Shown in pieces: positions 2 through 54,283 of a stretch of 54,313 bases of DNA (the stretch's first letter is position 1; the number at the start of each line of letters is the position of its first letter). The stretch comes from Candidatus Hydrogenedens sp. (lineage in GTDB: Bacteria > Hydrogenedentota > Hydrogenedentia > Hydrogenedentales > Hydrogenedentaceae). Location: NCBI GenBank assembly GCA_049968235.1, contig JBMFRC010000022.1, positions 1 to 54,313 of the forward strand. The letters run 5' to 3'. A model generated the notes under the pieces. It did not search any database. It saw nothing but the letters and a program-made list of their open reading frames with translations, and was not told the origin of the DNA. Both the position numbers and the translations under genes were made by a program.

Positions 2-697
2 GCAGGCTGGACAAATCAAAATAGAGGAAAAGAAAATGCAGAGGAGTTTATTAAAAAAAGTTTTCCTTCATTGATGGAATACTTAAAACAATATGAAGAG
101 AAAGCAAAAAAACGAGATGACCAAGGCGATTATTGGTGGGAACTTCGCAAATGTGCCTACTACCCCGAGTTTGAGAAGGAGAAGATTATTTACATTGAAA
201 TAATGACCGATAATTGGGAAGAAGGTTATGAATTTCCATGTTATACATATAGAAATGACACATGCTTTGTCTTAAATACCGCCTACATTATGACAGGTAA
301 AAATTTAAAATATATACTTGGATTATTGAATTCTAAATTTGGTAGTTATTTGGTAAAGCAACATGTTACTCAGCTTCAAAAAAGGCAATTTAGAATGTTG
401 GCACAATATGTAAACAATTTTGAGATTTCCCCCATCACGTCAGGGAACGAGGGCTTGGTGAAGCGTATAGAGGAACTCGTAGATAAAATCCTGGCGGCAA
501 AGAAAGATAACCCGCAGGCGGATACAAAAAATTTTGAAGAGGAAATAGACAAGCTTGTTTATAAATTGTATAATTTAACGGAAGAGGAGATAAGGATAAT
601 TGAAGGAGGGGAAATAACTCCGTGCTACTCCGTGGAGAGAGAAAAAAAATACTCCACCACAGAGACACAGAGAAACATAGAGAAGCAAAAGGGATGA
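2..697 (+). CDS. 5'-truncated CDS: C-terminal TaqI-like target-recognition domain of a type IIG restriction enzyme / N6-adenine DNA methyltransferase (Eco57I/PglX-like)
   Basis: The reading frame is open from the window edge (AGWTNQNRGKENAEEFIKK...) into the tracked ORF. Motifs such as YIMTGKNLKYILGLLNSKFGSYL and DYWWEL are typical of the TaqI_C specificity domain found at the C-terminus of type IIG RM / BREX PglX methylases. Confidence 0.5.
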   Translation, partial: AGWTNQNRGKENAEEFIKKSFPSLMEYLKQYEEKAKKRDDQGDYWWELRKCAYYPEFEKEKIIYIEIMTDNWEEGYEFPCYTYRNDTCFVLNTAYIMTGKNLKYILGLLNSKFGSYLVKQHVTQLQKRQFRMLAQYVNNFEISPITSGNEGLVKRIEELVDKILAAKKDNPQADTKNFEEEIDKLVYKLYNLTEEEIRIIEGGEITPCYSVEREKKYSTTETQRNIEKQKG

Positions 698-9836: not shown

Positions 9837-11291
9837 CTATTCCAATCCAAGTCGTTTGATTCTATATTGTAGGGTTGTTCGTTTAATTCCTAATAATTCA
9901 GCGGCACGAGTTTTGTTCCAATGGAACTTTTCTAAGGCTTTGAGGATTAGTTCTCTTTCCAGTCGTTCCGTATGCTGTTCCAGAGAAAGGTCTTCTTTAT
10001 CTTGTTGCTCATTTTTGATTTCGGATTCTACCTGTCGGTTTGTTTCTATATAGTTTTGTAATTCAAAAGGCATCTCATTTATCGTAACCTGAGGTCCTGT
10101 TGCTAAAACGATAGCACGTTCCATTATATTTTCCAATTCGCGGATATTACCGGGCCAGGGGTATCGTAAGAATAAATCAATAACCTCATCATCAACTTCA
10201 TATACCTCTTTTCGCAACTCCATACTAAATTTGTTTAAGAAATGTTCTACCAATGCCGGTATATCATCCGGTCGTTCCTTTAACGGCGGAACGTATATAG
10301 AAAACACGTTTAGGCGATAATAGAAATCTTCACGAAATGTTCCCTGAACAATTGCCTGTCTTAAATCACGATTCGTTGCAGCTACAATCCGCACGTCTAC
10401 TTTAATAGTTTCTGTTCCACCTACGCGTTCGAACTCTCCATCCTGAAGTACGCGTAGTAGTTTTACCTGAACACTGGGGTCAATTTCACCCACTTCATCG
10501 AGGAATAAAGTTCCCTTATGAGCCCGTTCGAATCGCCCTTCCCTTCTTGAAGTAGCCCCTGTAAATGCTCCCTTTTCATGACCGAATAGTTCGCTTTCCA
10601 GTAATGTTGGAGCTAATGACGCACAATTCAATGCGATAAAAGGTTCATCCCGTCGTGGACTTGCTTCGTGGAGAGCCCTTGCTACAAGTTCTTTCCCTAC
10701 ACCACTGGGACCTGTTATTAGAACCGAACTTTTGGTGGGTGCTACTCGTGCAATAATTTGACGTAGTTGTCTTGTTTGTGCACTTTCTCCTACCAGATGT
10801 TGCACAGAGGGATGTATCCATGTCTGGGCTCTGTTCGTATTTTTTATTTGTATTTGTTTTGCCAGTTTGGAAATTTTATTTTGTAAAACCGCCAATTGGA
10901 AGGGCTTTGTAATAAAATCGTGAGCCCCTAATCGCATTGCTTCAACAGCGATTTCGATAGTCCCATATGCGGTGATAATAATTACTTCTGTTTCGGGTGA
11001 TACACTTTTAACATAACGTAGGACATCCATACCTGACTTGCCGGGCATACTTAGGTCTGTAATCACAATGTGATATAAATGACGGGTGATTTTGTCTATA
11101 GCCTCCTCACCCGTAGATGCATTACTTACTTTGTAACCCATTTCCAGGAAAGTTTGAGAAAGCAAATTCCTCATATTTTCCCGGTCATCCACAATAAGAA
11201 TGTGAATAATGGCTTCTTTTTCCTGTGTGTTTGTTGACATATTTTTTAAATTTTCCTTCTCGGTTGGTGCTGAACAAATTGTGTTTTCCAT
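9837..11291 (-). CDS. sigma-54-dependent response regulator (NtrC family: REC + AAA+ + Fis HTH)
   Basis: ILIVDDRENMRNLL receiver domain; ITGPSGVGKELVARALH Walker A; GHEKGAFTGA (GAFTGA motif); C-terminal HTH LLGIKRTTLQYRIKRL. Confidence 0.9.
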   Translation of the reverse strand: MENTICSAPTEKENLKNMSTNTQEKEAIIHILIVDDRENMRNLLSQTFLEMGYKVSNASTGEEAIDKITRHLYHIVITDLSMPGKSGMDVLRYVKSVSPETEVIIITAYGTIEIAVEAMRLGAHDFITKPFQLAVLQNKISKLAKQIQIKNTNRAQTWIHPSVQHLVGESAQTRQLRQIIARVAPTKSSVLITGPSGVGKELVARALHEASPRRDEPFIALNCASLAPTLLESELFGHEKGAFTGATSRREGRFERAHKGTLFLDEVGEIDPSVQVKLLRVLQDGEFERVGGTETIKVDVRIVAATNRDLRQAIVQGTFREDFYYRLNVFSIYVPPLKERPDDIPALVEHFLNKFSMELRKEVYEVDDEVIDLFLRYPWPGNIRELENIMERAIVLATGPQVTINEMPFELQNYIETNRQVESEIKNEQQDKEDLSLEQHTERLERELILKALEKFHWNKTRAAELLGIKRTTLQYRIKRLGLE

Positions 11292-11293
11292 TG

Positions 11294-11611
11294 TTATCCA
11301 TTCCCAAATAGTTTTTCAAATTCCTTTTTTGCTTTATTTTTTTGTTCTTCCCATGAGGTATCCGAATTTCTTTCTTTCATTTCAAAATCATCACAGAAAT
11401 TCGGTCCTTCACGGTCTGCTATCTTTTCTGTATTGGGTATCATACAATCATTAGGTTTTCCCGGTGTATACCATCTACAGCTATTGCAACAATGCAAGTA
11501 TGCATTACATTTCGGACATGTTTCCTTTACCCCCGGCTGTTTTTTTGTAATGCTTTCCCAAGGATTTCCGCATCTATAGCAACTTTTCATCGAAAAATCC
11601 TTAAAAATCAA
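11294..11611 (-). CDS. small Cys-rich zinc-ribbon protein (hypothetical), directly upstream of and co-directional with the sigma-54 regulator
   Basis: It has 10+ cysteines in CxxC / CxxC / CCxxC arrangements (CYRCGNPW...CPKCNAYLHCCNSC...). There is a 2-bp gap to the downstream regulator gene. Confidence 0.5.
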   Translation of the reverse strand: MIFKDFSMKSCYRCGNPWESITKKQPGVKETCPKCNAYLHCCNSCRWYTPGKPNDCMIPNTEKIADREGPNFCDDFEMKERNSDTSWEEQKNKAKKEFEKLFGNG

Positions 11612-11720
11612 TTTTAATTAAAATATTACTTTTTAATTGGATTTGTCAAGTTATTTTTACTTTTATGTGGCTATCTTTAAAATGTTGTATAATTATAATA
11701 TAAAGCATAGAGGTAATAAA

Positions 11721-12029
11721 ATGTCATCTGCGGGGACGCAAAAGAAAAAACAAGTTAAAGATGAAAATTTAATAGAATTTCCGAGACTCTATCGGGTTTT
11801 ACTACATAATGACCATTATACGACTATGGAATTTGTTGTTTACATTTTAAAGACTATTTTTAATAAATCCCATGATGAGGCTGTTCGTATAATGTTAAAA
11901 GTTCACCGTGAAGGAATTGGAGTGGCAGGCATTTATGTTCGTTCTATTGCGGAAGCAAAGGTAGAATCGGTCCATCACATAGCCAGGGAAAACGGGTTCC
12001 CCTTAAAATGTTCCATTACCCCTGAATAA
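11721..12029 (+). CDS. clpS: ATP-dependent Clp protease adaptor ClpS
   Basis: PRLYRVLLHNDHYTTMEFVVYILKTIF...AVRIMLKVHREGIGVAGIY matches the ClpS core. The ATG at 11721 has an AGAGGT RBS, and the longer tracked ORF is probably an upstream extension. Confidence 0.9.
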   Translation: MSSAGTQKKKQVKDENLIEFPRLYRVLLHNDHYTTMEFVVYILKTIFNKSHDEAVRIMLKVHREGIGVAGIYVRSIAEAKVESVHHIARENGFPLKCSITPE

Positions 12030-12094
12030 TTTTTACAAAAATGATGTTATTATATGTGGATATACAATCGTTATAGTAGAAAAAGGCTACATAT

Positions 12095-14374
12095 ATGTTA
12101 AGTAAAGAAATACAAAAGGCTATAGGAAATGCGTTAAAAGAAGCAAGAAAAAGACGGCACGAGTATTTGTGTCCCGAACATTTGCTATATGTCTTATTGG
12201 ATGACCCTTATGGCAAGGAAATTCTCCAATACTGTGGATGCAATATTGAACGATTGCGAAAGAAACTAAATACTTTTTTCGATGAATATATTGCAAAAGT
12301 ACCTAAAAGTGTGGAATTGAATCTTCAACAAACACCTGCTTTTGACCGGTTAATCCAGCGTGCAGTATATCATGTTCAGAACTCAAGTAAGTCCGAAGTA
12401 GATGCGGGTGATATTCTTGCTGCATTGTTTGAGGAAGAAGATTCACATTCCGCATACTTTCTGTATCAAGAAGGTGTTACCCGCCTGGAAATTTTAGAAT
12501 ATATTTCTCATGCTAACCGTTATGAACGTTATGAACAGGGTCCAGATGTTGTTAGAGAACGAGAAAGGGAAAGAAAAACAAGTAGTGTTTTAGAGAGTTT
12601 TACAGTTAATCTTGTTCAGAAAGCACGAAAAGGGAAAATAGACCCGGTAATAGGTCGGGAAAAAGAGATTCAAAGGGCTATCCGTGTTCTTTGCAGACGA
12701 AGGAAAAACAATCCTGTTTTTGTGGGAGAACCCGGAGTAGGCAAGACAGCCATTGTCGAAGGATTAGCCCAGCGTATAGCAGACGGGAAAGTTCCTGATT
12801 CTATGAAAGATGTAGAATTATATATGGTTGATTTACCCGGTATGCTTGCAGGGACAAAGTATCGTGGAGACTTTGAACAAAGAATAAAAACTTTAATTAA
12901 TGAAGTATTGAAAAAGAAGAATGCTATACTCTACTTTGATGAAATCCACACTTTAGTGGGGGCAGGTAGTACAACAGAGTCCAGCATTGATGCAGCATCT
13001 ATTTTGAAGCCTTTTTTAGCAAGCGGTGAATTACATTGCATCGGGGCTACAACCTACGAAGAATTTAAGAATCATTTTGAAAAAGATAGAGCACTATCGA
13101 GACGGTTTCAGAAGATTGATGTTAATGAACCTACTATAGAAGAATGTATCCAGATTGTTCGTGGACTAAAAGGGCATTATGAACAACACCATAAAGTAGA
13201 ATTTACAGATGAAGCATTGGTCGCCTCAGTTGACCTATCCGCAAAGTATTTGAATGACCGTTTTCTGCCGGATAAGGCAGTAGATGTGCTGGATGAGTCC
13301 GCCGCAATGGTTCGTATTGAATCGAATGAATTTCCTATTACTGTGGATGTAAAAGATATTGAACGGACTATTGCTGATATGGCACAAATTCCATTACGCA
13401 CTGTTAATTCTGCCGACCGTGAGAAACTTAAGAACCTGGAAGGGGAATTAAAATCCGTTGTTTTTGGACAGGATGAAGCCATAGAAATGGTGGTGAAATC
13501 TATTCGCCGTTCTCGTGCCGGTTTAGGGAAACCTAATCGTCCGATAGGATGTTTTCTATTTACCGGACCTACCGGTGTTGGAAAAACAGAGGTTGCCAGA
13601 CAACTTGCTTTCATTTTAGGGAATCATTTCGCAAGATATGATATGAGTGAGTATATGGAAAAGCATGCAGTAGCACGATTAATCGGTGCTCCCCCAGGGT
13701 ATGTCGGATTTGAACAGGGCGGTATCCTTGTAGATGAGATACGCAGACATCCATACACGGTTCTTTTATTGGATGAAATAGAAAAGGCACATCCCGATTT
13801 GTTTAATATATTACTTCAAGTAATGGACGAAGCTACCTTGACTGATAATATGGGAAAGAAAGCAGATTTCCGAAATGTAATCCTTATTATGACTTCCAAT
13901 GCAGGTGCCCGTGAATTATATTCCCAATCTATCGGTTTCACAATGTCTCAAAGTGATGCAGAACGAAAAAGTTTGAAAGCCATTGAGCAAACAATGTCTC
14001 CAGAATTCCGTAACAGATTAGATGCTATCGTTTCATTTCATCCTTTGAACATTGAAGTAATGAAAATGATTGTAGATAAGTTTGTTAATCGTATTAAATC
14101 GCAACTCATAGAGAAACAAGTGGCGTTGGAATTAAGCCCAACTGCCCGTAGATGGTTAGCAGAAAGGGGATATGATGCTCGTTTGGGAGCAAGACCTTTA
14201 GCACGACTTATTCAGAAAGAGATTGAAACACCTCTTGCGGATGAGATATTGTTTGGCAAATTAGAGCATGGCGGATATGTATATATTGACATCTCGTCAG
14301 ACGATAGGATTCATTTTAATTTTAACCAGGATAAAACTACTTCAAATAAAAAAGAACCTCTTTCAACATTGTAG
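12095..14374 (+). CDS. clpA: ATP-dependent Clp protease ATP-binding subunit ClpA
   Basis: Clp N-domain plus two AAA+ modules (GEPGVGKTAIVEGLA; GPTGVGKTEVARQLA), 759 aa, immediately downstream of clpS. Confidence 0.95.
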   Translation: MLSKEIQKAIGNALKEARKRRHEYLCPEHLLYVLLDDPYGKEILQYCGCNIERLRKKLNTFFDEYIAKVPKSVELNLQQTPAFDRLIQRAVYHVQNSSKSEVDAGDILAALFEEEDSHSAYFLYQEGVTRLEILEYISHANRYERYEQGPDVVRERERERKTSSVLESFTVNLVQKARKGKIDPVIGREKEIQRAIRVLCRRRKNNPVFVGEPGVGKTAIVEGLAQRIADGKVPDSMKDVELYMVDLPGMLAGTKYRGDFEQRIKTLINEVLKKKNAILYFDEIHTLVGAGSTTESSIDAASILKPFLASGELHCIGATTYEEFKNHFEKDRALSRRFQKIDVNEPTIEECIQIVRGLKGHYEQHHKVEFTDEALVASVDLSAKYLNDRFLPDKAVDVLDESAAMVRIESNEFPITVDVKDIERTIADMAQIPLRTVNSADREKLKNLEGELKSVVFGQDEAIEMVVKSIRRSRAGLGKPNRPIGCFLFTGPTGVGKTEVARQLAFILGNHFARYDMSEYMEKHAVARLIGAPPGYVGFEQGGILVDEIRRHPYTVLLLDEIEKAHPDLFNILLQVMDEATLTDNMGKKADFRNVILIMTSNAGARELYSQSIGFTMSQSDAERKSLKAIEQTMSPEFRNRLDAIVSFHPLNIEVMKMIVDKFVNRIKSQLIEKQVALELSPTARRWLAERGYDARLGARPLARLIQKEIETPLADEILFGKLEHGGYVYIDISSDDRIHFNFNQDKTTSNKKEPLSTL

Positions 14375-45967: not shown

Positions 45968-46043
45968 TGGAGCTGGAACGGGGAATCGAACCCCGGACCT
46001 GGTCATTACGAGTGACCCGCTCTACCGACTGAGCTATTCCAGC
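45968..46043 (-). tRNA. tRNA-Thr (anticodon CGT)
   Basis: The minus-strand 76-nt sequence GCTGGAATAGCTCAGTCGGTAGAGCGGGTCACTCGTAATGACCAGGTCCGGGGTTCGATTCCCCGTTCCAGCTCCA folds as a cloverleaf (7-bp acceptor stem, GTTCGATTC T-loop, anticodon loop CTCGTAA) with an encoded CCA. Confidence 0.9.
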
Positions 46044-46111: not shown

Positions 46112-46187
<76 letters not shown>

Positions 46188-48126: not shown

Positions 48127-49497
48127 TCACCCGTAAATAATGCCTAATGGTGGGTATTCCTTCCATTTTCCTCGCGTAAAGTCCGGAAAATCTTGAGGTG
48201 TACCGCGTTGGGCGACAGACCGTTCACTTAATTCTGAAACCACACTCCATGAGGCCGCATCGTAAACATTCAAATCTGTAGGTAAACCTTTGCGGAGACA
48301 TTCAATTAAACGGAAATCCTCAATGAAATCCATTCCACCATGTCCGGCTCCTTTGGCAGAATCCTGCATCGCTTTCCATAAAGGATGTTCCCACTCATTT
48401 GTATAATTCTCCAGAGGCTCAAATTTCTCCTCTTTTGTTAACCCTTCTACGAAAATACGCGGAGGATAATCCATAATGACGCCTTTTGTTCCCTGTACCG
48501 TATTAATTCGGCTGTAAGGACGAGGCAAATTTGTGTCATGCACGATGTATATTGTACATCCATTATAAGTTTTTATAATGCTTAAGTTCACATCCCCTAA
48601 CACATATTTTTCATTTCTACGGGGGTCATCCTCAGGTAGCGTTTTTTGGTATTCTTGGAGGCCTCGAGATTTGCTACTAACAGAAACTAAATACTCAAAC
48701 TGATCTCCGCGATTGATGTTCATATATTGAGCTACGGGTCCCAATCCATGTGTGGGATATAGATTTCCGTTTCGTTTCATCGAATGAGCACGACGCCAGA
48801 GCCCTTCTCCGTCCTTGCTGAATTTTACGCCTCTTAAATCATGTAAATAACCGCATTCTCCATGAATAATCTCGCCTAGCAGTCCCTTGCGGACCATGTG
48901 GAGCATCATTAATTCCGTTCGATTATAGCAACAATTCTCCATCATAACGCAGTGTTTCTTATACTTCTCTGCAGTTTCGACCAATTGCCAGCATTCCTCC
49001 AATGTTACTGCTGCAGGCACTTCCGTCGCTGCATGTTTACCATTTTCCATCGCAGAAACACACACAGGAACATGCCATTCCCATGGTGTTGCTGTGTAAA
49101 CTAAATCTAATTCTTCTGTTTCACACATTTTTTTAAAATCCAATTCCCCATTTGAATAACATGTGGGTTCTGGCTGTCCCGCATCTACAACCATCTTTTT
49201 TACGCGTTCTACTTTTTCAGGAACAATATCACAAACAGCTTTCAGTTGCACACCCTCTATCTTCAATAAATTCCTTACATGATTGGTGCCCATACCTCCT
49301 ACACCAACAAATCCGATGCGAACCGTTTTCATTGGAGGAGCGGAGAAGAGTTCTGCTGGGGCAGGGGCGGTGCGAATGGAATTTGTTGAAGGTTGATTTT
49401 GTGCAGAGCCTTTCATCGCAAATATCATTGATGCGACACCAGAAAGCGATAAAAACGACCTCCGCGAGAATTCAAAATGTGTGGTATCTTTTTTCAT
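48127..49497 (-). CDS. Gfo/Idh/MocA-family NAD-dependent oxidoreductase with twin-arginine signal (GH109-like)
   Basis: Tat motif SRRSFLSLSGVASM; Rossmann motif IGFVGVGGMGTNHV; family-typical EKP and C-terminal domain. Confidence 0.8.
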   Translation of the reverse strand: MKKDTTHFEFSRRSFLSLSGVASMIFAMKGSAQNQPSTNSIRTAPAPAELFSAPPMKTVRIGFVGVGGMGTNHVRNLLKIEGVQLKAVCDIVPEKVERVKKMVVDAGQPEPTCYSNGELDFKKMCETEELDLVYTATPWEWHVPVCVSAMENGKHAATEVPAAVTLEECWQLVETAEKYKKHCVMMENCCYNRTELMMLHMVRKGLLGEIIHGECGYLHDLRGVKFSKDGEGLWRRAHSMKRNGNLYPTHGLGPVAQYMNINRGDQFEYLVSVSSKSRGLQEYQKTLPEDDPRRNEKYVLGDVNLSIIKTYNGCTIYIVHDTNLPRPYSRINTVQGTKGVIMDYPPRIFVEGLTKEEKFEPLENYTNEWEHPLWKAMQDSAKGAGHGGMDFIEDFRLIECLRKGLPTDLNVYDAASWSVVSELSERSVAQRGTPQDFPDFTRGKWKEYPPLGIIYG

Positions 49498-49619
49498 ATT
49501 CCTTGTTCCTTAAAATTTAGTTTAATGATGTTTTTGCTTATTTGTTTGTGAAATTAATAATATACTGTCATAAACATTAAACTTTATTTAAATACAAAAA
49601 ATCAAAAAAGGAAGGAATT

Positions 49620-50036
49620 ATGGATGCTTACTTATTTATTTGCCTCGGAACAAGAGATGTTCAAATAGAAAATTCCATTAATTTAGAAGGGGATTTGCAT
49701 AAAACTTTAGAAGAGTGTAAATATCCATGGAAAGAGAAAGATAAAAACTTTCGTGGGTTAAATGTTCGCAAATTGGGACATTGGTTATATGATAATTTTG
49801 ATAAAGTTAAAGAAATAATTAGAATACCATTAAGTGAACCATTTTTAAATCACATAGAAAATGAAAGTCATACTATAAAACAGATTTATCTTATCGCTAC
49901 GGACCAACAAAAAACAATTGAAGAAAGTGCAAAGGAACATTTAGAAAGAGATACCTGTATAATAGCAGATTTCTTAAAAGAAAAATTTTTCCCGTATTTC
50001 TTTACTAAAAAAAGATGCTTACCCTTCCCGATATAG
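49620..50036 (+). CDS. N-terminal part of a CARF-HEPN (Csm6/Csx1-like) protein. It is out of frame with the next ORF at an A7 tract (50007..50013).
   Basis: The first strand MDAYLFICLGTRDV resembles the CARF beta1 plus G[TS] motif. A 22-bp overlap with the next ORF and insertion of one A fuse the two frames (…FFTKK-K-MLTLPD…). Confidence 0.5.
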   Translation: MDAYLFICLGTRDVQIENSINLEGDLHKTLEECKYPWKEKDKNFRGLNVRKLGHWLYDNFDKVKEIIRIPLSEPFLNHIENESHTIKQIYLIATDQQKTIEESAKEHLERDTCIIADFLKEKFFPYFFTKKRCLPFPI

Positions 50037-51112
50037 TTACTATTACTCTCAATGATCCGCCCAATAGCTATGATTTAATGATAAAAGAATTTAGTGATAA
50101 GTTAGGGAAAATTTATGGAGATAATGAAAATCAATATTTAGTCTGTGCAGAAATTACAGGAGGGACCCCTCACATTAATACATCTATTATTTTAAATTGT
50201 ATCAAATTTTTTAGAAACAAAGTTACATTTATCTATAAACCTGAAAATTCAAACGACATTAGGTCTCTTAATATTGCCAAATATATATTAAGTTCATATG
50301 AACATGAAAATTTAAAACAACTTGTTGAAAGATATGATTTTGATGCAATTGTGCAGAATAAAAATTATTCAGACACAATCGGAAAGTTATCTTTATCTGC
50401 GTGCTATAGAGGAAACTTTGATTTTTTTTTTTATAAGAAAGAAATAGACAAAATGTATGATAATGTACCTAAAAATATGCTTGAGATATTAAGAAATGAT
50501 GCGTCTAAATTATGCGAAAAAGAACCCAATTCAATATTTAATGAACTTTACTGGAATACAGTAATTATGTGGAAGCGAGATGAGTGTGCAAATTTTATAG
50601 GAAGAGTCTGGAGGATTATGGAAGCATCTCTTCAATATTCATTGCTTGAAATTGTAGGATGTACATGGGATGAAATGAAGGAAAACTCAAATAAAAAAAC
50701 TTTTGAAAATAAATTTAGAAAGTGGGCAGAAGAAAATAAAGAGTTTTTAAAATATTTAGAAAAACAACAACATATTGCTCCTAATATGCCTATGCTTATT
50801 GCTTGTATCGATTTTCTTTCAGAGAGGGGACCGAACAGGGATAAATATAAAAATATTCAAAAGTGGGCGCAAAAACTGAGATCTTTTGCAACGATAAGAA
50901 ATAAATCAATTATAGCACATGGTTTTTGTGACATATCTAAGGAGATGATTAAGAATACCCTTGAAGATAAAGAAGAGGATATACTTATTATTGTTAGGTC
51001 ACTGATTGAAAGTGTAGGGATTCAATTGTCGGAGGAGAATCCATTTGATATTTTTAAAGAACTTTTAATAAATATTAATGAACAATATTTGAATGAAACT
51101 CTATATGTTTAA
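50015..51112 (+). CDS. C-terminal part of a CARF-HEPN (Csm6/Csx1-like) protein: CARF core motif plus C-terminal HEPN Rx4-6H motif
   Basis: LVCAEITGGTPHINTSIIL resembles the CARF D/N-x-T-G-G-T-K motif. ATIRNKSIIAHGF contains R-x6-H (HEPN Rx4-6H) about 65 aa from the C-terminus, as in Csm6. This gene looks visibly AT-richer than its neighbours. Confidence 0.5.
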   Translation: MLTLPDIVTITLNDPPNSYDLMIKEFSDKLGKIYGDNENQYLVCAEITGGTPHINTSIILNCIKFFRNKVTFIYKPENSNDIRSLNIAKYILSSYEHENLKQLVERYDFDAIVQNKNYSDTIGKLSLSACYRGNFDFFFYKKEIDKMYDNVPKNMLEILRNDASKLCEKEPNSIFNELYWNTVIMWKRDECANFIGRVWRIMEASLQYSLLEIVGCTWDEMKENSNKKTFENKFRKWAEENKEFLKYLEKQQHIAPNMPMLIACIDFLSERGPNRDKYKNIQKWAQKLRSFATIRNKSIIAHGFCDISKEMIKNTLEDKEEDILIIVRSLIESVGIQLSEENPFDIFKELLININEQYLNETLYV

Positions 51113-52064
51113 CAATCTTAGTTTTACAGTTCAGCGGGTTAGTTTTTTAGCGGAGGAGCCCTTGTTGGTGCCAGAATATAAGGGTTCGATGATTCGTGGT
51201 GCATTGGGTCATGCCTTAAAAAAAGTTTCCTGTGCGTTGAAGAGGTTTACCTGCCCGGAGTGTCCTATTCGTGAAAAATGTGCTTATAGTATGTGCTTTG
51301 AGACTCCTATCCCAAAATCATCAGAGATTATGAAAAAATATCCTAAAGCACCTCATCCCTATATTCTCGAACCCCCTATTGAGTCAAAAGAGCGTTATGA
51401 ACCCGGCGAGGTATTTGAGTGTAATTTAACCCTTGTTGGTAGAGCAAAGGATTTCTTACCGCATTTTATCTATGCACTTGATGTGATGGCTGAGGAAGGT
51501 TTCGGTAGAGGACGAGGAAAATCTAAACTTATATCCCTTGATTATCTTACTCCTGAAAACAAATGGAACGCCCTATATTCGCCTGAGGCAAATGAATTCT
51601 TAGGGGAACCGTATTCCTTCAAGATACAGGATATTTTGCAAAAGAAAGAGCAACTTTTGTTGGATAAGAGAATAGAAATACAATATATAACACCTACACG
51701 ATTAGTTATAGACGGGAATCTCCATGATACGGGAGAAATAGCATATATCCTACCTGGATTACTTCGTAGACTTACTTTGTTGCAATACTTCTTTTGTGGT
51801 GGTTATTTAGAAAAGGATGTGATTTCTCTAGTAGAAGCGGGGAAAAATCTACAACCTTTACATTCTGCATTCCAGTGGCAGGATTGGGTCCGTTATTCAT
51901 CTCGTCAGGATAGAAAAGTAATTATGGGAGGTTTTATAGTGTCGATAGTATATGAGCAAATTCCTTCTGAAATCCTTGAAGTTCTTTGTTGGGGTGAAAG
52001 GTTACATATTGGCAAAGGAACTGTGTTCGGATTAGGTAAATATAATCTTCTGCCTGCAAACTGA
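51093..52064 (+). CDS. Cas6-like RAMP-superfamily protein (solitary, no CRISPR array nearby) with a Cys cluster
   Basis: N-terminal LLVPEYKGSMIRGALGHALKK parallels the Cas6 N-terminal strand-helix (e.g. PfCas6 FKVPYNHQYYLQGLIYNAIKS). The extreme C-terminal glycine-rich loop HIGKGTVFGLGKY follows GxGxxxxxGxG. There is a CxxC...C...C cluster (CPECPIREKCAYSMC). It overlaps the upstream stop by 8-20 bp and sits 4 bp before the next gene. Confidence 0.55.
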   Translation: MKLYMFNNLSFTVQRVSFLAEEPLLVPEYKGSMIRGALGHALKKVSCALKRFTCPECPIREKCAYSMCFETPIPKSSEIMKKYPKAPHPYILEPPIESKERYEPGEVFECNLTLVGRAKDFLPHFIYALDVMAEEGFGRGRGKSKLISLDYLTPENKWNALYSPEANEFLGEPYSFKIQDILQKKEQLLLDKRIEIQYITPTRLVIDGNLHDTGEIAYILPGLLRRLTLLQYFFCGGYLEKDVISLVEAGKNLQPLHSAFQWQDWVRYSSRQDRKVIMGGFIVSIVYEQIPSEILEVLCWGERLHIGKGTVFGLGKYNLLPAN

Positions 52065-52068
52065 CAAC

Positions 52069-53232
52069 ATGTGCGATACGATTGTTTTTGTAGATAGTCA
52101 AAAAGTTTTATTTGCAAAGAATTCGGACCGTGAGGTAAACGAATCTCAGGTTCTTCTCTGGCAACCGCGTAAAAATTACACGAAAAATGAATTACTACAA
52201 TGCACATATATAACCATTCCCCAGGTTCGTGAGACCTATGCCATTTTAGTATGTAAACCTACATGGATGTGGGGTGCTGAAATGGGGACGAATGAGTTTG
52301 GCGTTACTATTGGGAATGAAGCGGTATTTACCAACCAACCTTATGCTAAAACAGGTTTGACAGGGATGGACCTGATTCGTCTTGCTTTAGAACGGTCCAT
52401 CACCGCAAAACAAGCATGTGAAACAATTATTCAACTTATAGAAATTCATGGTCAGGGTGGAAATTGTGGATACAAAAAAACGACCTACTATCACAACAGT
52501 TATATAATCGCAGATACCCAGGAAGCTTATGTTCTTGAAACCGCTGACAAGAAATATGCTGTGGAAAAAGTTTATGGGTGTCGTGCTATTTCCAATGGCT
52601 TGACTATTAAAGATTTTAAGGAAAAATACAGCAGTCAAATTAAAAGTTACTTTACTCGGTGTAATCAACGAAGAAATGCTATGGAACAGTGCAGACAAAA
52701 AACTCTGACCGTATCGGATATGTTTCAACTACTTCGTTCCCATAAGAATGAAAACTATTATCCAGAATATCATTGGTTTCACGGAGGGATGGATGCACCC
52801 TGTATGCATGCGGGCGGACTCTTCCTTAATTATCAGACTACTGCGTCATGGGTTGCAGAACTTACTCCTAAACATTGTGCCTATTGGGTTACTGCAACTT
52901 CAACTCCATGTATCAGTCTATTCAAACCTGTAAATATATCACAACCTTTAAGTAATAAATTTTGTAATACAAAAGGGGAACTTAAAGATTCTTTCTGGTG
53001 GAAACATGAAAAATTCCAACGACTGGTTATGAAAAATCCTTCACAAACCTTTCCTGTTTTTATTGATAAGAAAAATCAGATGGAAAACGAATGGCTTCAA
53101 AAACCCCCAGTCTCTGAAACTGCTTTCCTCACACATGAACAATTACTTTCTCATTGGACCGCACAGATACTTAAACTTAACATACAGGATACCCGTCCTA
53201 TATGGACACGTTACTTCTGGAATAAAATTTAG
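52069..53232 (+). CDS. secernin-like peptidase (MEROPS C69 family, Ntn-hydrolase with Cys2 nucleophile)
   Basis: MCDTIVFV...VLFAKNSDREVNE...PTWMWGAEMGTNEFGVTIGNEAVFT...GMDLIRLALERSITAKQACETIIQLIEIHGQGGN is collinear with eukaryotic secernin / C69 dipeptidase signatures, as far as I recall them (WLWGAEMGANEHGV...; GMDLVRL...HGQGGN). Confidence 0.7.
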   Translation: MCDTIVFVDSQKVLFAKNSDREVNESQVLLWQPRKNYTKNELLQCTYITIPQVRETYAILVCKPTWMWGAEMGTNEFGVTIGNEAVFTNQPYAKTGLTGMDLIRLALERSITAKQACETIIQLIEIHGQGGNCGYKKTTYYHNSYIIADTQEAYVLETADKKYAVEKVYGCRAISNGLTIKDFKEKYSSQIKSYFTRCNQRRNAMEQCRQKTLTVSDMFQLLRSHKNENYYPEYHWFHGGMDAPCMHAGGLFLNYQTTASWVAELTPKHCAYWVTATSTPCISLFKPVNISQPLSNKFCNTKGELKDSFWWKHEKFQRLVMKNPSQTFPVFIDKKNQMENEWLQKPPVSETAFLTHEQLLSHWTAQILKLNIQDTRPIWTRYFWNKI

Positions 53233-53671
53233 AACAACTTCTACATAAAAAGCCGAAGCAAAAAAATAAACAGTAAGATAACAATTCCATCCTTTTACTA
53301 ACCAATCAGTGCAAAATTTACTCATATTCATAAGTATGATTTACCTTTGAGTACCCCGTTGAGGTGCTATACTATTCACATAATAAAAATTAGATATAAG
53401 ATAAAAATTCATGATTCTAATCCTATTAAAACTTGAATAATCTTTATTCTCAATACTTTATTTTGCAGAGTAATGTTTTAACTTGGAAACTAGTTTCTCC
53501 CCAGGGGACATGGAGATGCCCCGGAGTTTCATCCAGATAACCCCACCAGTTCATATAGACCTATAAGTTTTCCTAATATGTAGATTTATCTTTGAAAACA
53601 TAAAGTTTATAATAATTATATTATTAATTTATATAATATATTAATATTATTATATCAATTTCCTTTATTTA

Positions 53672-54283
53672 TTATTTACAAGGATGGTAATTATATTTAT
53701 TACACGGTATGTTATCGGCTGTTTTTATTCGAGAAATTCCCCATATTTTTTTACAGTTTAAATCTAACCATATGACACCCATTATTTGCTTTTGAGTATA
53801 TTCGTCAATATATGTAAAATCTATTTCCCATACATATGAAGAAATATATTGTTTTTCCCCTCTTTTGTCAAACTCGAACTCATTTTTATTCGGGGCGATA
53901 ACTAATTTAGGTATAACATTATCTAATATTTTGGGATTATATGTATTTACATCCAGTTCTTCTTTTATCAGTTCTCTCGCTTTTTGATATATAATTGTTA
54001 TCGGAGGTTCCTCTGGAATATCTACTTTTGTAGGACAAGGAAATTTTCTATAAAAAAATCTTTTAATGGTTTTCTCTGTCTTTGAAAGAGAAACAATAAA
54101 TGTCTGAGAACGGTCAGGAATACCATCCAATGAAAAATATAAAATTATATTAAGTAAATCTTTTGACGAATCGTTTTTTATTTTATAGCAATTTTTATCT
54201 TCCGGGAAATCGAAATATTTTAACAACTTATTAATTTTTTCAATGAAAATTTCTTCTTGCGAAGAAATATCCTTTTCAGACAA
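53672..54283 (-). CDS. hypothetical protein (AT-rich, Lys/Asn-rich)
   Basis: Long ORF with no recognisable motifs. Confidence 0.35.
   Translation of the reverse strand: MSEKDISSQEEIFIEKINKLLKYFDFPEDKNCYKIKNDSSKDLLNIILYFSLDGIPDRSQTFIVSLSKTEKTIKRFFYRKFPCPTKVDIPEEPPITIIYQKARELIKEELDVNTYNPKILDNVIPKLVIAPNKNEFEFDKRGEKQYISSYVWEIDFTYIDEYTQKQIMGVIWLDLNCKKIWGISRIKTADNIPCNKYNYHPCK

What the first reader, a model, noticed from the sequence alone, without database searches (positions are those of the whole stretch)
52069..53232. Secernin-like (C69, Ntn-hydrolase) peptidase fused into the putative defence operon
The protein begins Met-Cys (a Cys2 N-terminal nucleophile after Met removal) and is collinear over >150 aa with eukaryotic secernin / C69 dipeptidase signatures, as I recall them (WxWGAEMGxNExGV; GMDLxRLxLER...HGQGGN). 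Bacterial secernin-like proteins are uncommon and, as far as I know, functionally uncharacterised. Operonic coupling to CARF-HEPN and Cas6-like genes, with only a 4-bp spacing, suggests an effector or maturation protease role.
Basis: partly seen in the sequence, partly recalled or inferred. Interest (0 to 1): 0.6.

Follow-up and report, generated by a model that had tools for sequence, protein, structure and literature searches.

The report
Secernin-like hydrolase beside stray cas genes
The gene is a genuine bacterial relative of animal secernins (a cysteine N-terminal-nucleophile amidohydrolase), but the family is common in bacteria and its position behind two CRISPR genes is peculiar to one lineage, so it is probably an ordinary metabolic enzyme and not a defence component.

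Summary
The ORF is real: 52069-53232 (+), 387 aa, Met-Cys start, 4 nt after cas6. It is secernin-like. It is 33-35% identical to authentic vertebrate secernin-1/-2 over about 300 aa (E 7e-50 and 1e-53). Cys2 aligns with the secernin-2 nucleophile. A confident model (pLDDT 91.7) has the Cys-Ntn-hydrolase fold.

The interpretation mostly fails. The family is not rare: at least 7,889 protein clusters and at least 594 species genomes across many phyla. Linkage to csx1-cas6 is confined to one monophyletic Hydrogenedentota clade (window plus 9 loci, same flanks). It is absent from 82 other loci, whose recurrent neighbours are class-III aminotransferases, DUF6206 and amine oxidases.

Related Cas6 genes elsewhere lie in complete type III loci without any secernin-like gene. 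The csx1-cas6 pair has lower GC than its neighbours, lacks a CRISPR array or effector genes on this contig, and csx1 is frameshifted here.

Best reading: a resident cytosolic amidohydrolase of unknown substrate, behind which a detached type III csx1-cas6 fragment was inserted once. A defence role is not excluded but has no support. Interest is low.

The parts
52069..53232 (+). Secernin-like Cys-Ntn amidohydrolase gene (387 aa, Met-Cys start; MEROPS C69 in the secernin sense)
   Evidence: ORF. BLASTP to authentic secernin-1/-2 gives E=7e-50 and 1e-53. AF2 model pLDDT 91.7. Foldseek top hit is 5iau, a C69 Cys dipeptidase, then PVA/BSH/AAT. Invariant residues include C2, D3, K17-R21, N83 and N176.
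51093..52064 (+). cas6 (pre-crRNA endoribonuclease), 4 nt upstream of the target gene
   Evidence: PADLOC Cas6 1.2e-86. Pfam CRISPR_Cas6 5.4e-9. NCBI names the identical protein P0241 as Cas6.
49620..50036 (+). csx1 5' fragment (N-terminal CARF part), ended by a frameshift
   Evidence: PADLOC CARF_HEPN/Csx1 N-terminal match 2.3e-13. tblastn to the intact L004 Csx1 covers residues 1-136 in frame +1.
50015..51112 (+). csx1 3' fragment (rest of CARF plus HEPN); overlaps the cas6 start
   Evidence: PADLOC Csx1 4e-49; Pfam Csm6 HEPN 1.1e-8. tblastn to L004 Csx1 covers residues 116-507 in frame +3.
50007..50013 (+). A7 homopolymer where csx1 changes frame; A8 would restore one ~504-aa ORF
   Evidence: Sequence and two-frame tblastn alignment. 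Relatives have intact Csx1 of 504-510 aa.
48127..49497 (-). Divergently transcribed GFO/IDH/MocA-GH109-like oxidoreductase; conserved left flank and probable original neighbour of the secernin-like gene
   Evidence: 81-92% identical in all clade loci. A 48%-identical homologue lies 3.3 kb upstream of the secernin-like gene in the cas-free Hydrogenedentota locus L011.

Best explanation
The gene encodes a cytosolic cysteine N-terminal-nucleophile (Ntn) amidohydrolase of the secernin branch of MEROPS C69. Inferred mechanism: methionine aminopeptidase removes Met1, so no internal autoproteolysis is needed. The free alpha-amino group of Cys2 then activates its thiol to attack a small amide substrate, such as a dipeptide or an aminoacyl- or acyl-amine. 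Conserved Asn83 and Asn176 would act as the oxyanion hole and D20/R21 would orient the nucleophile, by analogy with bile-salt hydrolase and penicillin V acylase. It is a resident metabolic gene of Hydrogenedentota. In one ancestor of this clade a detached csx1-cas6 fragment of a type III CRISPR-Cas locus landed between the GFO-like gene and the secernin-like gene. The hydrolase now lies 3-4 nt behind cas6 and is probably co-transcribed with it, without taking part in CRISPR function. Shown here: the identity, the fold, how widespread the family is, that the linkage arose once in one clade, and the amine-metabolism neighbours elsewhere. Inferred: the catalytic mechanism, the substrate class, the insertion scenario and co-transcription.
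For: Identity: 33-35% identity to named secernin-1/-2 over about 300 aa, E 7e-50 and 1e-53, with the Cys aligned. The model has pLDDT 91.7. Best PDB folds are the C69 Cys dipeptidase 5iau (E 1.4e-13, TMq 0.66), then PVA, BSH, AAT and PLBD1. C2, D3, K17, S19, R21, N83 and others are invariant, and N18, D20 and N176 nearly so, across 92 bacterial sequences, and all are kept in the cas-linked clade.
How widespread the family is: at least 7,889 clusters at E<=1e-3 and at least 594 species genomes in Hydrogenedentota, Planctomycetota, Myxococcota, Actinomycetota, Nitrospirota, Gammaproteobacteria and others.
Lineage restriction: Csx1 and Cas6 are found by blastp only in 9 of 91 loci. All of these that extend far enough share the GFO flank, and most also HtrA. 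The clade is monophyletic in 100/100 bootstraps and its nearest outside relative is L011, which keeps the GFO neighbour.
No Cas family appears among 137 nearest neighbours of the other 82 loci, either in the 25 Pfam families listed or in the complete PADLOC list of 14 families. Their recurrent neighbours are Aminotran_3 (12 loci, some with 4-nt overlaps), DUF6206 (7 loci) and flavin or copper amine oxidases.
Cas6 relatives at 34-51% identity lie in full type III loci with Cas10, Csm or Cmr, Cas1-2, a Csx1 homologue and a 62-repeat array, but no secernin-like gene.
csx1-cas6 GC is 0.327, against 0.38 for the hydrolase, 0.427 for GFO and 0.37 for the contig. There is no CRISPR array in the window or in the clade loci, and none of the 25 PADLOC families listed of the 75 matched for the rest of the contig is a Cas protein. 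csx1 is frameshifted here while the hydrolase is intact. Divergence from eukaryotic secernins is barely raised in the cas-linked clade (p-distance 0.667 against 0.647), so there is no sign of neofunctionalisation.
Against: The 3-4 nt cas6-hydrolase spacing is kept in 8 of 9 relatives over considerable divergence (hydrolase 57-74% identical, Csx1 38-70%). The trio has therefore stayed together for a long time, and selection for co-expression cannot be excluded. No substrate is known for any secernin (PMC9140057), so 'metabolic amidohydrolase' is a class, not a demonstrated activity. Whole genomes could not be inspected, so I do not know whether these organisms keep a type III effector complex and arrays elsewhere, or a second secernin-like paralogue. 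The neighbourhood survey covered 91 loci, not all of the 7,889 or more homologues. In the NJ tree the clade is sister to all other sampled bacteria (75/100), not nested within other Hydrogenedentota, which may reflect AT-bias or long-branch effects.
Confidence: 0.75

Rival explanations
1. The hydrolase has been co-opted in this Hydrogenedentota clade as an accessory of the Csx1-Cas6 module. It might be a protease or amidase that matures or degrades a Cas component, removes a toxic product of Csx1 activity, or acts as a second effector.
For: It is on the same strand with 3-4 nt spacing behind cas6, and csx1 and cas6 overlap. This is conserved in 8 of 9 clade loci. No terminator-like site lies between the genes. 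Protease effectors are known in type III signalling (own knowledge: CalpL, Lon-SAVED).
Against: The linkage arose once and is inherited together with identical flanks. It is absent from 82 other loci and from type III loci with related Cas6/Csx1. The protein has no CARF, SAVED or other sensor domain. It shows no accelerated evolution or altered active site. csx1 is disrupted in this contig while the hydrolase is intact. No literature link was found.
Confidence: 0.07
2. It is a classical PepD/PepDA-type C69 dipeptidase used for peptide catabolism.
For: The best solved-structure match is the L. farciminis C69 dipeptidase 5iau. Many homologues are labelled 'dipeptidase', 'C69 family dipeptidase' or 'peptidase U34' by their sources.
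Against: No sequence-level similarity to any PDB chain, including 5iau, was found even with a family profile at E<=10. Identity in the structural alignment is only 14%. The protein is far closer to secernins, whose substrates are unknown. Recurrent neighbours elsewhere are aminotransferases and amine oxidases, not peptide transporters or peptidases.
Confidence: 0.15
3. It is a catalytically inactive, secernin-1-like scaffolding protein.
For: The review cited says vertebrate secernin-1 lacks autoprocessing and proposes a non-hydrolytic role for it (PMC9140057).
Against: Cys2 and the conserved polar positions checked (all but one of which the vertebrate secernin-2 sequences also share) are kept in the 10 cas-linked sequences and in nearly all of the 82 other bacterial sequences.
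Confidence: 0.03

Closest known systems
Vertebrate secernins (SCRN1-3; MEROPS C69, Pfam PF03577)
   Same: 33-35% identity over about 300 aa with the shared motifs KNSxR, WxWGAEMGxNxxGV, GNEA, GMDLxRLxLER, HGQGGN and FKP. The nucleophile Cys aligns with that of secernin-2. It has the Ntn fold. The function of both is unknown.
   Different: The Cys is residue 2, directly after Met, whereas in secernin-2 it lies about 11 residues in. The C-terminal ~100 aa helical region did not align with the vertebrate proteins by BLASTP. Bacterial and eukaryotic sequences form separate clades (100/100).
PepDA, C69-family cysteine dipeptidase of Lactobacillus farciminis (PDB 5iau)
   Same: It is the best solved-structure match (Foldseek E 1.4e-13, TMq 0.66), with the Cys-Ntn alpha-beta-beta-alpha fold.
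   Different: Identity is only 14% and the similarity is undetectable by sequence or profile search. PepDA is about 75-80 residues longer. It is a demonstrated dipeptidase, whereas this protein is untested.
Choloylglycine hydrolase family (bile-salt hydrolase / penicillin V acylase, C59)
   Same: Same fold (Foldseek E about 1e-9). From my own knowledge, not tested structurally here: the Met-Cys start is exposed by Met removal, and conserved Asn residues sit at similar positions (N83 and N176 against BSH N82 and N175).
   Different: 10-15% identity, a different subfamily, and no steroid or penicillin context.
C45 acyl-CoA:6-APA acyltransferase / 'carcinine hydrolase' family (Pfam PF03417)
   Same: The Pfam AAT hit is above its cut-off (27.5 against 23.2 bits, residues 43-230). 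The fold matches 2x1c/2x1d/2x1e. Some homologues are named this way by NCBI.
   Different: C45 enzymes are proenzymes cleaved at an internal Gly-Cys site, whereas here the Cys is at position 2. NCBIfam C45_proenzyme scores 31 bits against a cut-off of 85.
Type III CRISPR ancillary protease effectors (e.g. CalpL, Lon-SAVED; own knowledge)
   Same: The only shared features are adjacency to csx1/cas6 and being a hydrolase of amide bonds.
   Different: It has no cOA-sensing domain, no recurrent association with cas loci, an unrelated fold, and linkage confined to one lineage.

Membership tests
Secernin branch of MEROPS C69 (Pfam PF03577) | Ntn-hydrolase alpha-beta-beta-alpha fold | tested here: met
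   AF2 model pLDDT 91.7, pTM 0.92. 98 PDB matches at E<=1e-3; all of the 50 listed that carry a functional name are Cys-Ntn hydrolases, with the C69 enzyme 5iau on top.
Secernin branch of MEROPS C69 (Pfam PF03577) | Significant, collinear sequence similarity to bona fide secernins | tested here: met
   BLASTP E=7e-50 (secernin-1, P0123) and 1e-53 (secernin-2, P0214), 33-35% identity over 304-314 columns.
Secernin branch of MEROPS C69 (Pfam PF03577) | Cysteine nucleophile at the mature N-terminus | tested here: met
   Cys2 follows Met1, is invariant in 92 bacterial sequences, and aligns with Cys12 of secernin-2. Actual Met removal cannot be tested here.
Secernin branch of MEROPS C69 (Pfam PF03577) | Score above the Pfam Peptidase_C69 gathering threshold | tested here: inconclusive
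   22.5 bits against a cut-off of 23.0, and only residues 75-159 matched. Many close homologues carry a precomputed PF03577 hit.
Secernin branch of MEROPS C69 (Pfam PF03577) | Amide or peptide hydrolase activity | not testable with these tools
   This needs an enzyme assay. No substrate is known even for human SCRN2/3 (PMC9140057).
PepD/PepDA-type C69 dipeptidases | Sequence-level homology to characterised dipeptidases | tested here: not met
   phmmer and a family-profile hmmsearch against all PDB chains, which include 5iau, gave 0 hits at E<=1 and E<=10. Identity in the Foldseek alignment is 14%.
C45 autoproteolytic acyltransferase/hydrolase (AAT, PF03417; NCBIfam NF040521) | Family model score above the curated cut-off, and an internal autoproteolytic Gly-Cys site | tested here: inconclusive
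   Pfam AAT passes (27.5 against 23.2 bits) but NCBIfam C45_proenzyme fails (31.2 against 85). The nucleophile is at residue 2, so there is no internal propeptide.
CRISPR-Cas type III ancillary / CARF-signalling effector | Recurrent co-occurrence with cas genes in independent lineages | tested here: not met
   Only one monophyletic clade (9 of 91 loci) with identical flanks shows it. No Cas family was found among 137 neighbours of 82 other loci.
CRISPR-Cas type III ancillary / CARF-signalling effector | A cyclic-oligoadenylate sensor domain (CARF/SAVED) in the protein | tested here: not met
   No such hit in Pfam, NCBIfam or PADLOC. In the model, the N-terminal ~290 residues form beta sheets with flanking helices, the C-terminal ~90 residues are helical, and the best PDB match (5iau) aligns over the whole length.
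CRISPR-Cas type III ancillary / CARF-signalling effector | Presence in type III loci that carry the related Cas6/Csx1 | tested here: not met
   L092-L095 are type III-A/B loci with Cas6 at 34-51% identity. L092/L093 also have a Csx1 homologue at 32%. tblastn found no secernin-like gene in any of them.

The most novel reading that the evidence does not exclude
In this Hydrogenedentota lineage a housekeeping secernin-like Cys-Ntn amidohydrolase has been recruited into a stand-alone csx1-cas6 operon and contributes to type III CRISPR signalling. It might process or inactivate a Cas protein, or detoxify a product of Csx1-induced dormancy. That would be the first Ntn-hydrolase accessory of CRISPR-Cas and would give a functional handle on the enigmatic secernin family.
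Probability: 0.06. Interest if true: 0.55.

Novelty: new member of a known kind. Interest (0 to 1): 0.15.

Why it matters
As it stands it matters little. The gene is one more member of a very large, already annotated but biochemically uncharacterised bacterial family ('peptidase U34', 'C69 family dipeptidase', 'secernin'). Two modest points are useful. First, bacteria hold thousands of close secernin homologues (about 35% identical to the vertebrate proteins) with a simpler Met-Cys architecture. In Actinomycetota they repeatedly sit beside class-III aminotransferases, DUF6206 and amine oxidases. This is a tractable lead to the unknown substrate class of secernins, perhaps aminoacyl- or acyl-amines. 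Second, the case shows that tight operon-like spacing to cas genes can arise from a single insertion next to a resident gene, so guilt-by-association needs independent recurrences.

Tried and rejected
- AFDB50 fold search: the library was unavailable, so vertebrate secernin models could not be compared structurally. I replaced this with direct sequence comparison. A recalled SCRN1 sequence served only as bait to retrieve authentic, source-named secernins.
- PDB sequence searches with the single protein and with the family profile gave no hits.
- The first batch Pfam scan of neighbours exceeded the residue limit. It was repeated after dropping 8 very long ORFs.
- CRISPR-array searches in the window and clade loci with the repeat finder, TRF and a k-mer spacing script found none.
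- Rfam on the whole window found only two tRNAs.
- The promoter and terminator scan of 49300-53800 gave fewer promoter-like sites than shuffles and no convincing terminator, so it was uninformative about transcription units.
- The PADLOC hit 'RtcR_PspF2 CARF_AAA_HTH' (1.4e-118) was checked. The contig's only sigma-54 activator is the NtrC-type gene at 9837-11291 (-), with a receiver domain and no CARF, so it was rejected as relevant.
- A literature search for secernin together with CRISPR, CARF or Csx1 found no paper joining them.
- dN/dS was considered and not run, because synonymous sites would be saturated at 57-74% amino-acid identity.

Full report
**Observation.** The window holds an ORF at 52069-53232 (+), 387 aa, ATG start, beginning MCDTIVFV. 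It starts 4 nt after the stop codon of the upstream gene (51093-52064). That upstream gene is a clear Cas6 (PADLOC PDLC01477 E=1.2e-86; Pfam CRISPR_Cas6 5.4e-9). Further upstream are two overlapping ORFs, 49620-50036 and 50015-51112. Together they make up a Csx1 (CARF+HEPN): the 138-aa piece matches model positions 3-111 of one PADLOC CARF_HEPN model (2.3e-13) and the 365-aa piece matches positions 102-435 of a Csx1 model (4e-49).

**What the protein is.** Library profiles give only weak signals. Pfam AAT/C45 scores 27.5 bits (cut-off 23.2). Pfam Peptidase_C69 scores 22.5 bits (cut-off 23.0) on residues 75-159 only. NCBIfam C45_proenzyme scores 31 bits against a cut-off of 85.
- Neither the protein nor a 28-sequence family profile finds any PDB chain by sequence.
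- An AlphaFold2 model built on that alignment is confident (pLDDT 91.7, pTM 0.92).
- Its best solved-structure match is the C69 cysteine dipeptidase of Lactobacillus farciminis (5iau, E=1.4e-13, TMq 0.66, 14% identity). Next come penicillin V acylases, bile-salt hydrolases, isopenicillin-N acyltransferase and PLBD1, all Cys-Ntn hydrolases.

To test 'secernin versus PepD-like' I needed authentic secernins. I used a human SCRN1 sequence recalled from memory strictly as bait. It retrieved source-named secernins, for example P0121 'secernin-1 [Pan troglodytes]' at 98% identity to the bait, and secernin-2 of sharks and rays. The window protein aligns with Marmota secernin-1 at 33% identity over 304 columns (E=7e-50).

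So the protein belongs to the secernin branch. Its relation to classical PepD/PepDA dipeptidases is visible only at the fold level. M1-C2-D3 and K17, S19, R21, N83 and many other polar positions are invariant, and N18, D20 and N176 nearly so, in 92 bacterial sequences, and all are kept in the cas-linked sequences. This argues for an active enzyme.

Cys is a permitted residue after Met for methionine aminopeptidase (established knowledge). The nucleophile is therefore probably exposed simply by Met removal, as in many bile-salt hydrolases (own knowledge, not tested). According to a 2022 review, secernins are assigned to C69, have no crystal structure, and their substrates 'remain elusive' (PMC9140057).

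**How common the family is.** Hundreds of full-length relatives lie at about 50% identity. Their sources name them 'peptidase U34', 'C69 family dipeptidase', 'secernin', 'dipeptidase' or 'carcinine hydrolase/isopenicillin-N N-acyltransferase family'. The statement that bacterial secernin-like proteins are uncommon is refuted.

**Is the cas linkage meaningful?** Relatives at 57-74% identity all show the same arrangement: HtrA(-), GFO/GH109-like(-) | csx1(+)-cas6(+)-hydrolase(+). They are L001-L009, several annotated as Candidatus Hydrogenedens or Hydrogenedentes. Csx1 is intact there at 504-510 aa, and the cas6-hydrolase gap is 3-4 nt in eight loci and 53 nt in one. The right flank varies.
- Relatives at about 50% identity have no cas neighbours (L010, L011).
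- Across all 91 fetched loci, blastp finds Cas6 and Csx1 only in those nine.
- The 137 nearest up- and downstream ORFs of the other 82 loci contain no Cas family, either in the 25 Pfam families listed or in the complete PADLOC list of 14 families.
- In an NJ tree of 100 sequences the cas-linked genes are monophyletic in 100/100 bootstraps. Their closest outside relative is L011, a Hydrogenedentota locus where a 48%-identical GFO homologue still lies 3.3 kb upstream of the hydrolase.
- The clade is hardly more diverged from eukaryotic secernins than other bacteria are (p-distance 0.667 against 0.647).

**Origin of the csx1-cas6 pair.** Cas6 relatives at 34-51% identity lie inside complete type III loci: Cas10, Csm2-5 or Cmr2-6, Cas1-Cas2 and Csm6/Csx1. 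In L092/L093 the gene just upstream of Cas6 is a Csx1 homologue (32% identity over 363 aa), and L093 carries a 62-repeat CRISPR array. None of these loci has a secernin-like gene.

In the window the csx1-cas6 pair has lower GC (0.327) than the hydrolase (0.38), GFO (0.427) and the contig (0.37). No CRISPR array exists in the window or in the clade loci. The window is an entire 54,313-bp NCBI MAG contig. Its other genes are housekeeping: DNA Pol III alpha, PurD, iPGM, UvrD, QueC, prephenate dehydratase and others. None of the 25 PADLOC families listed (of 75 matched) for those genes is a Cas protein.

The simplest history is a single insertion of a detached type III csx1-cas6 fragment between GFO and a resident hydrolase gene, followed by vertical inheritance.

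**The csx1 frameshift.** In this contig csx1 changes frame at an A7 run (50007-50013). An eighth A would restore ...FFTKKKMLTLPDIVTITL..., collinear with the intact 507-aa L004 protein. Both halves are otherwise free of stop codons. This is therefore either a recent inactivation or a homopolymer assembly error. If it is real, the hydrolase stays intact while its supposed partner is broken.

**What the family sits next to elsewhere.** Clustering of neighbours shows no universal partner. In Actinomycetota a class-III aminotransferase recurs in 12 loci, twice overlapping the hydrolase gene by 4 nt. DUF6206 recurs in 7 loci. Flavin amine oxidases (453 aa, 4-nt overlap in L090 and L091) and copper amine oxidases also recur.

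**Conclusion.** The identification as a secernin-like Cys-Ntn hydrolase is right. The claims of rarity and of a defence or maturation role are not supported. Best explanation (confidence about 0.75): a resident cytosolic amidohydrolase of unknown small-amide substrate, probably co-transcribed with an inserted csx1-cas6 remnant but functionally independent of it. A lineage-specific co-option into CRISPR function cannot be excluded (about 6%). It would need genetics, biochemistry or independent recurrences to be taken seriously. No paper links secernins with CRISPR, CARF or Csx1. Novelty: a new member of a known, uncharacterised family. Interest is low.

Noticed in passing
window 50007-50013 (within csx1, 49620-51112): csx1 is split into 138-aa and 365-aa ORFs by a one-base shortfall in an A7 run. 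A8 would restore a ~504-aa Csx1 like those of the relatives. Both halves are otherwise intact, so this is either a recent pseudogenisation or a homopolymer assembly error.
   Followed up: partly
window 49620-52064; loci L001-L009: A stand-alone csx1-cas6 pair, with no CRISPR array or effector genes nearby, is kept at the same chromosomal position across a Hydrogenedentota clade. Cas6 (54-85% identity) is better conserved than Csx1 (38-70%). Whether these genomes keep type III effector genes and arrays elsewhere is unknown.
   Followed up: partly
L033 9895-11568, L062 11218-12453, L068 1980-4735, L081 7607-8467, L034 11394-13339, L087 11219-13326, L090/L091 ~11197-12645: In Actinomycetota the secernin-like gene repeatedly sits beside, and sometimes overlaps by 4 nt, a class-III aminotransferase, DUF6206 and flavin amine oxidases. 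This may be a conserved amide/amine catabolic cassette that could reveal the family's substrate.
   Followed up: partly
window 71-697 (+): A 208-aa ORF matches only the C-terminal end (positions ~1073-1246 of 1247) of PADLOC Type IIG restriction-methyltransferase models. It is apparently a gene truncated by the contig start.
   Followed up: no
window 53233-54283: An AT-rich 440-bp intergenic region with a 13-nt tandem repeat (53616-53652) is followed by a 203-aa ORF on the minus strand (53672-54283). That ORF has no hit in Pfam, NCBIfam or PADLOC, and it lies at the contig end.
   Followed up: no
window 45971-46043 and 46115-46187 (-): Two tRNA genes (Rfam RF00005, 70.6 and 73.1 bits) lie between the MerR-HTH/receiver regulator gene and htrA.
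   Followed up: no
L093 1-4430; L092 1-9894: Two contigs share the helicase (DEAD/MZB), csx1 homologue (481 aa, no Pfam hit) and cas6 genes. Upstream of them L093 has a 62-repeat CRISPR array (repeat contains TGAAAAAGGGATAGAAACG), while L092 has csm genes and cas1-cas2. This is the closest intact relative of the window's csx1-cas6 module.
   Followed up: partly
window 9837-11291 (-): The strong PADLOC hit to 'RtcR_PspF2 CARF_AAA_HTH' (1.4e-118) most likely comes from this NtrC-type sigma-54 activator (receiver + AAA+ + Fis HTH), the only one on the contig. It has no CARF domain, so it is a false lead for CARF signalling.
   Followed up: yes
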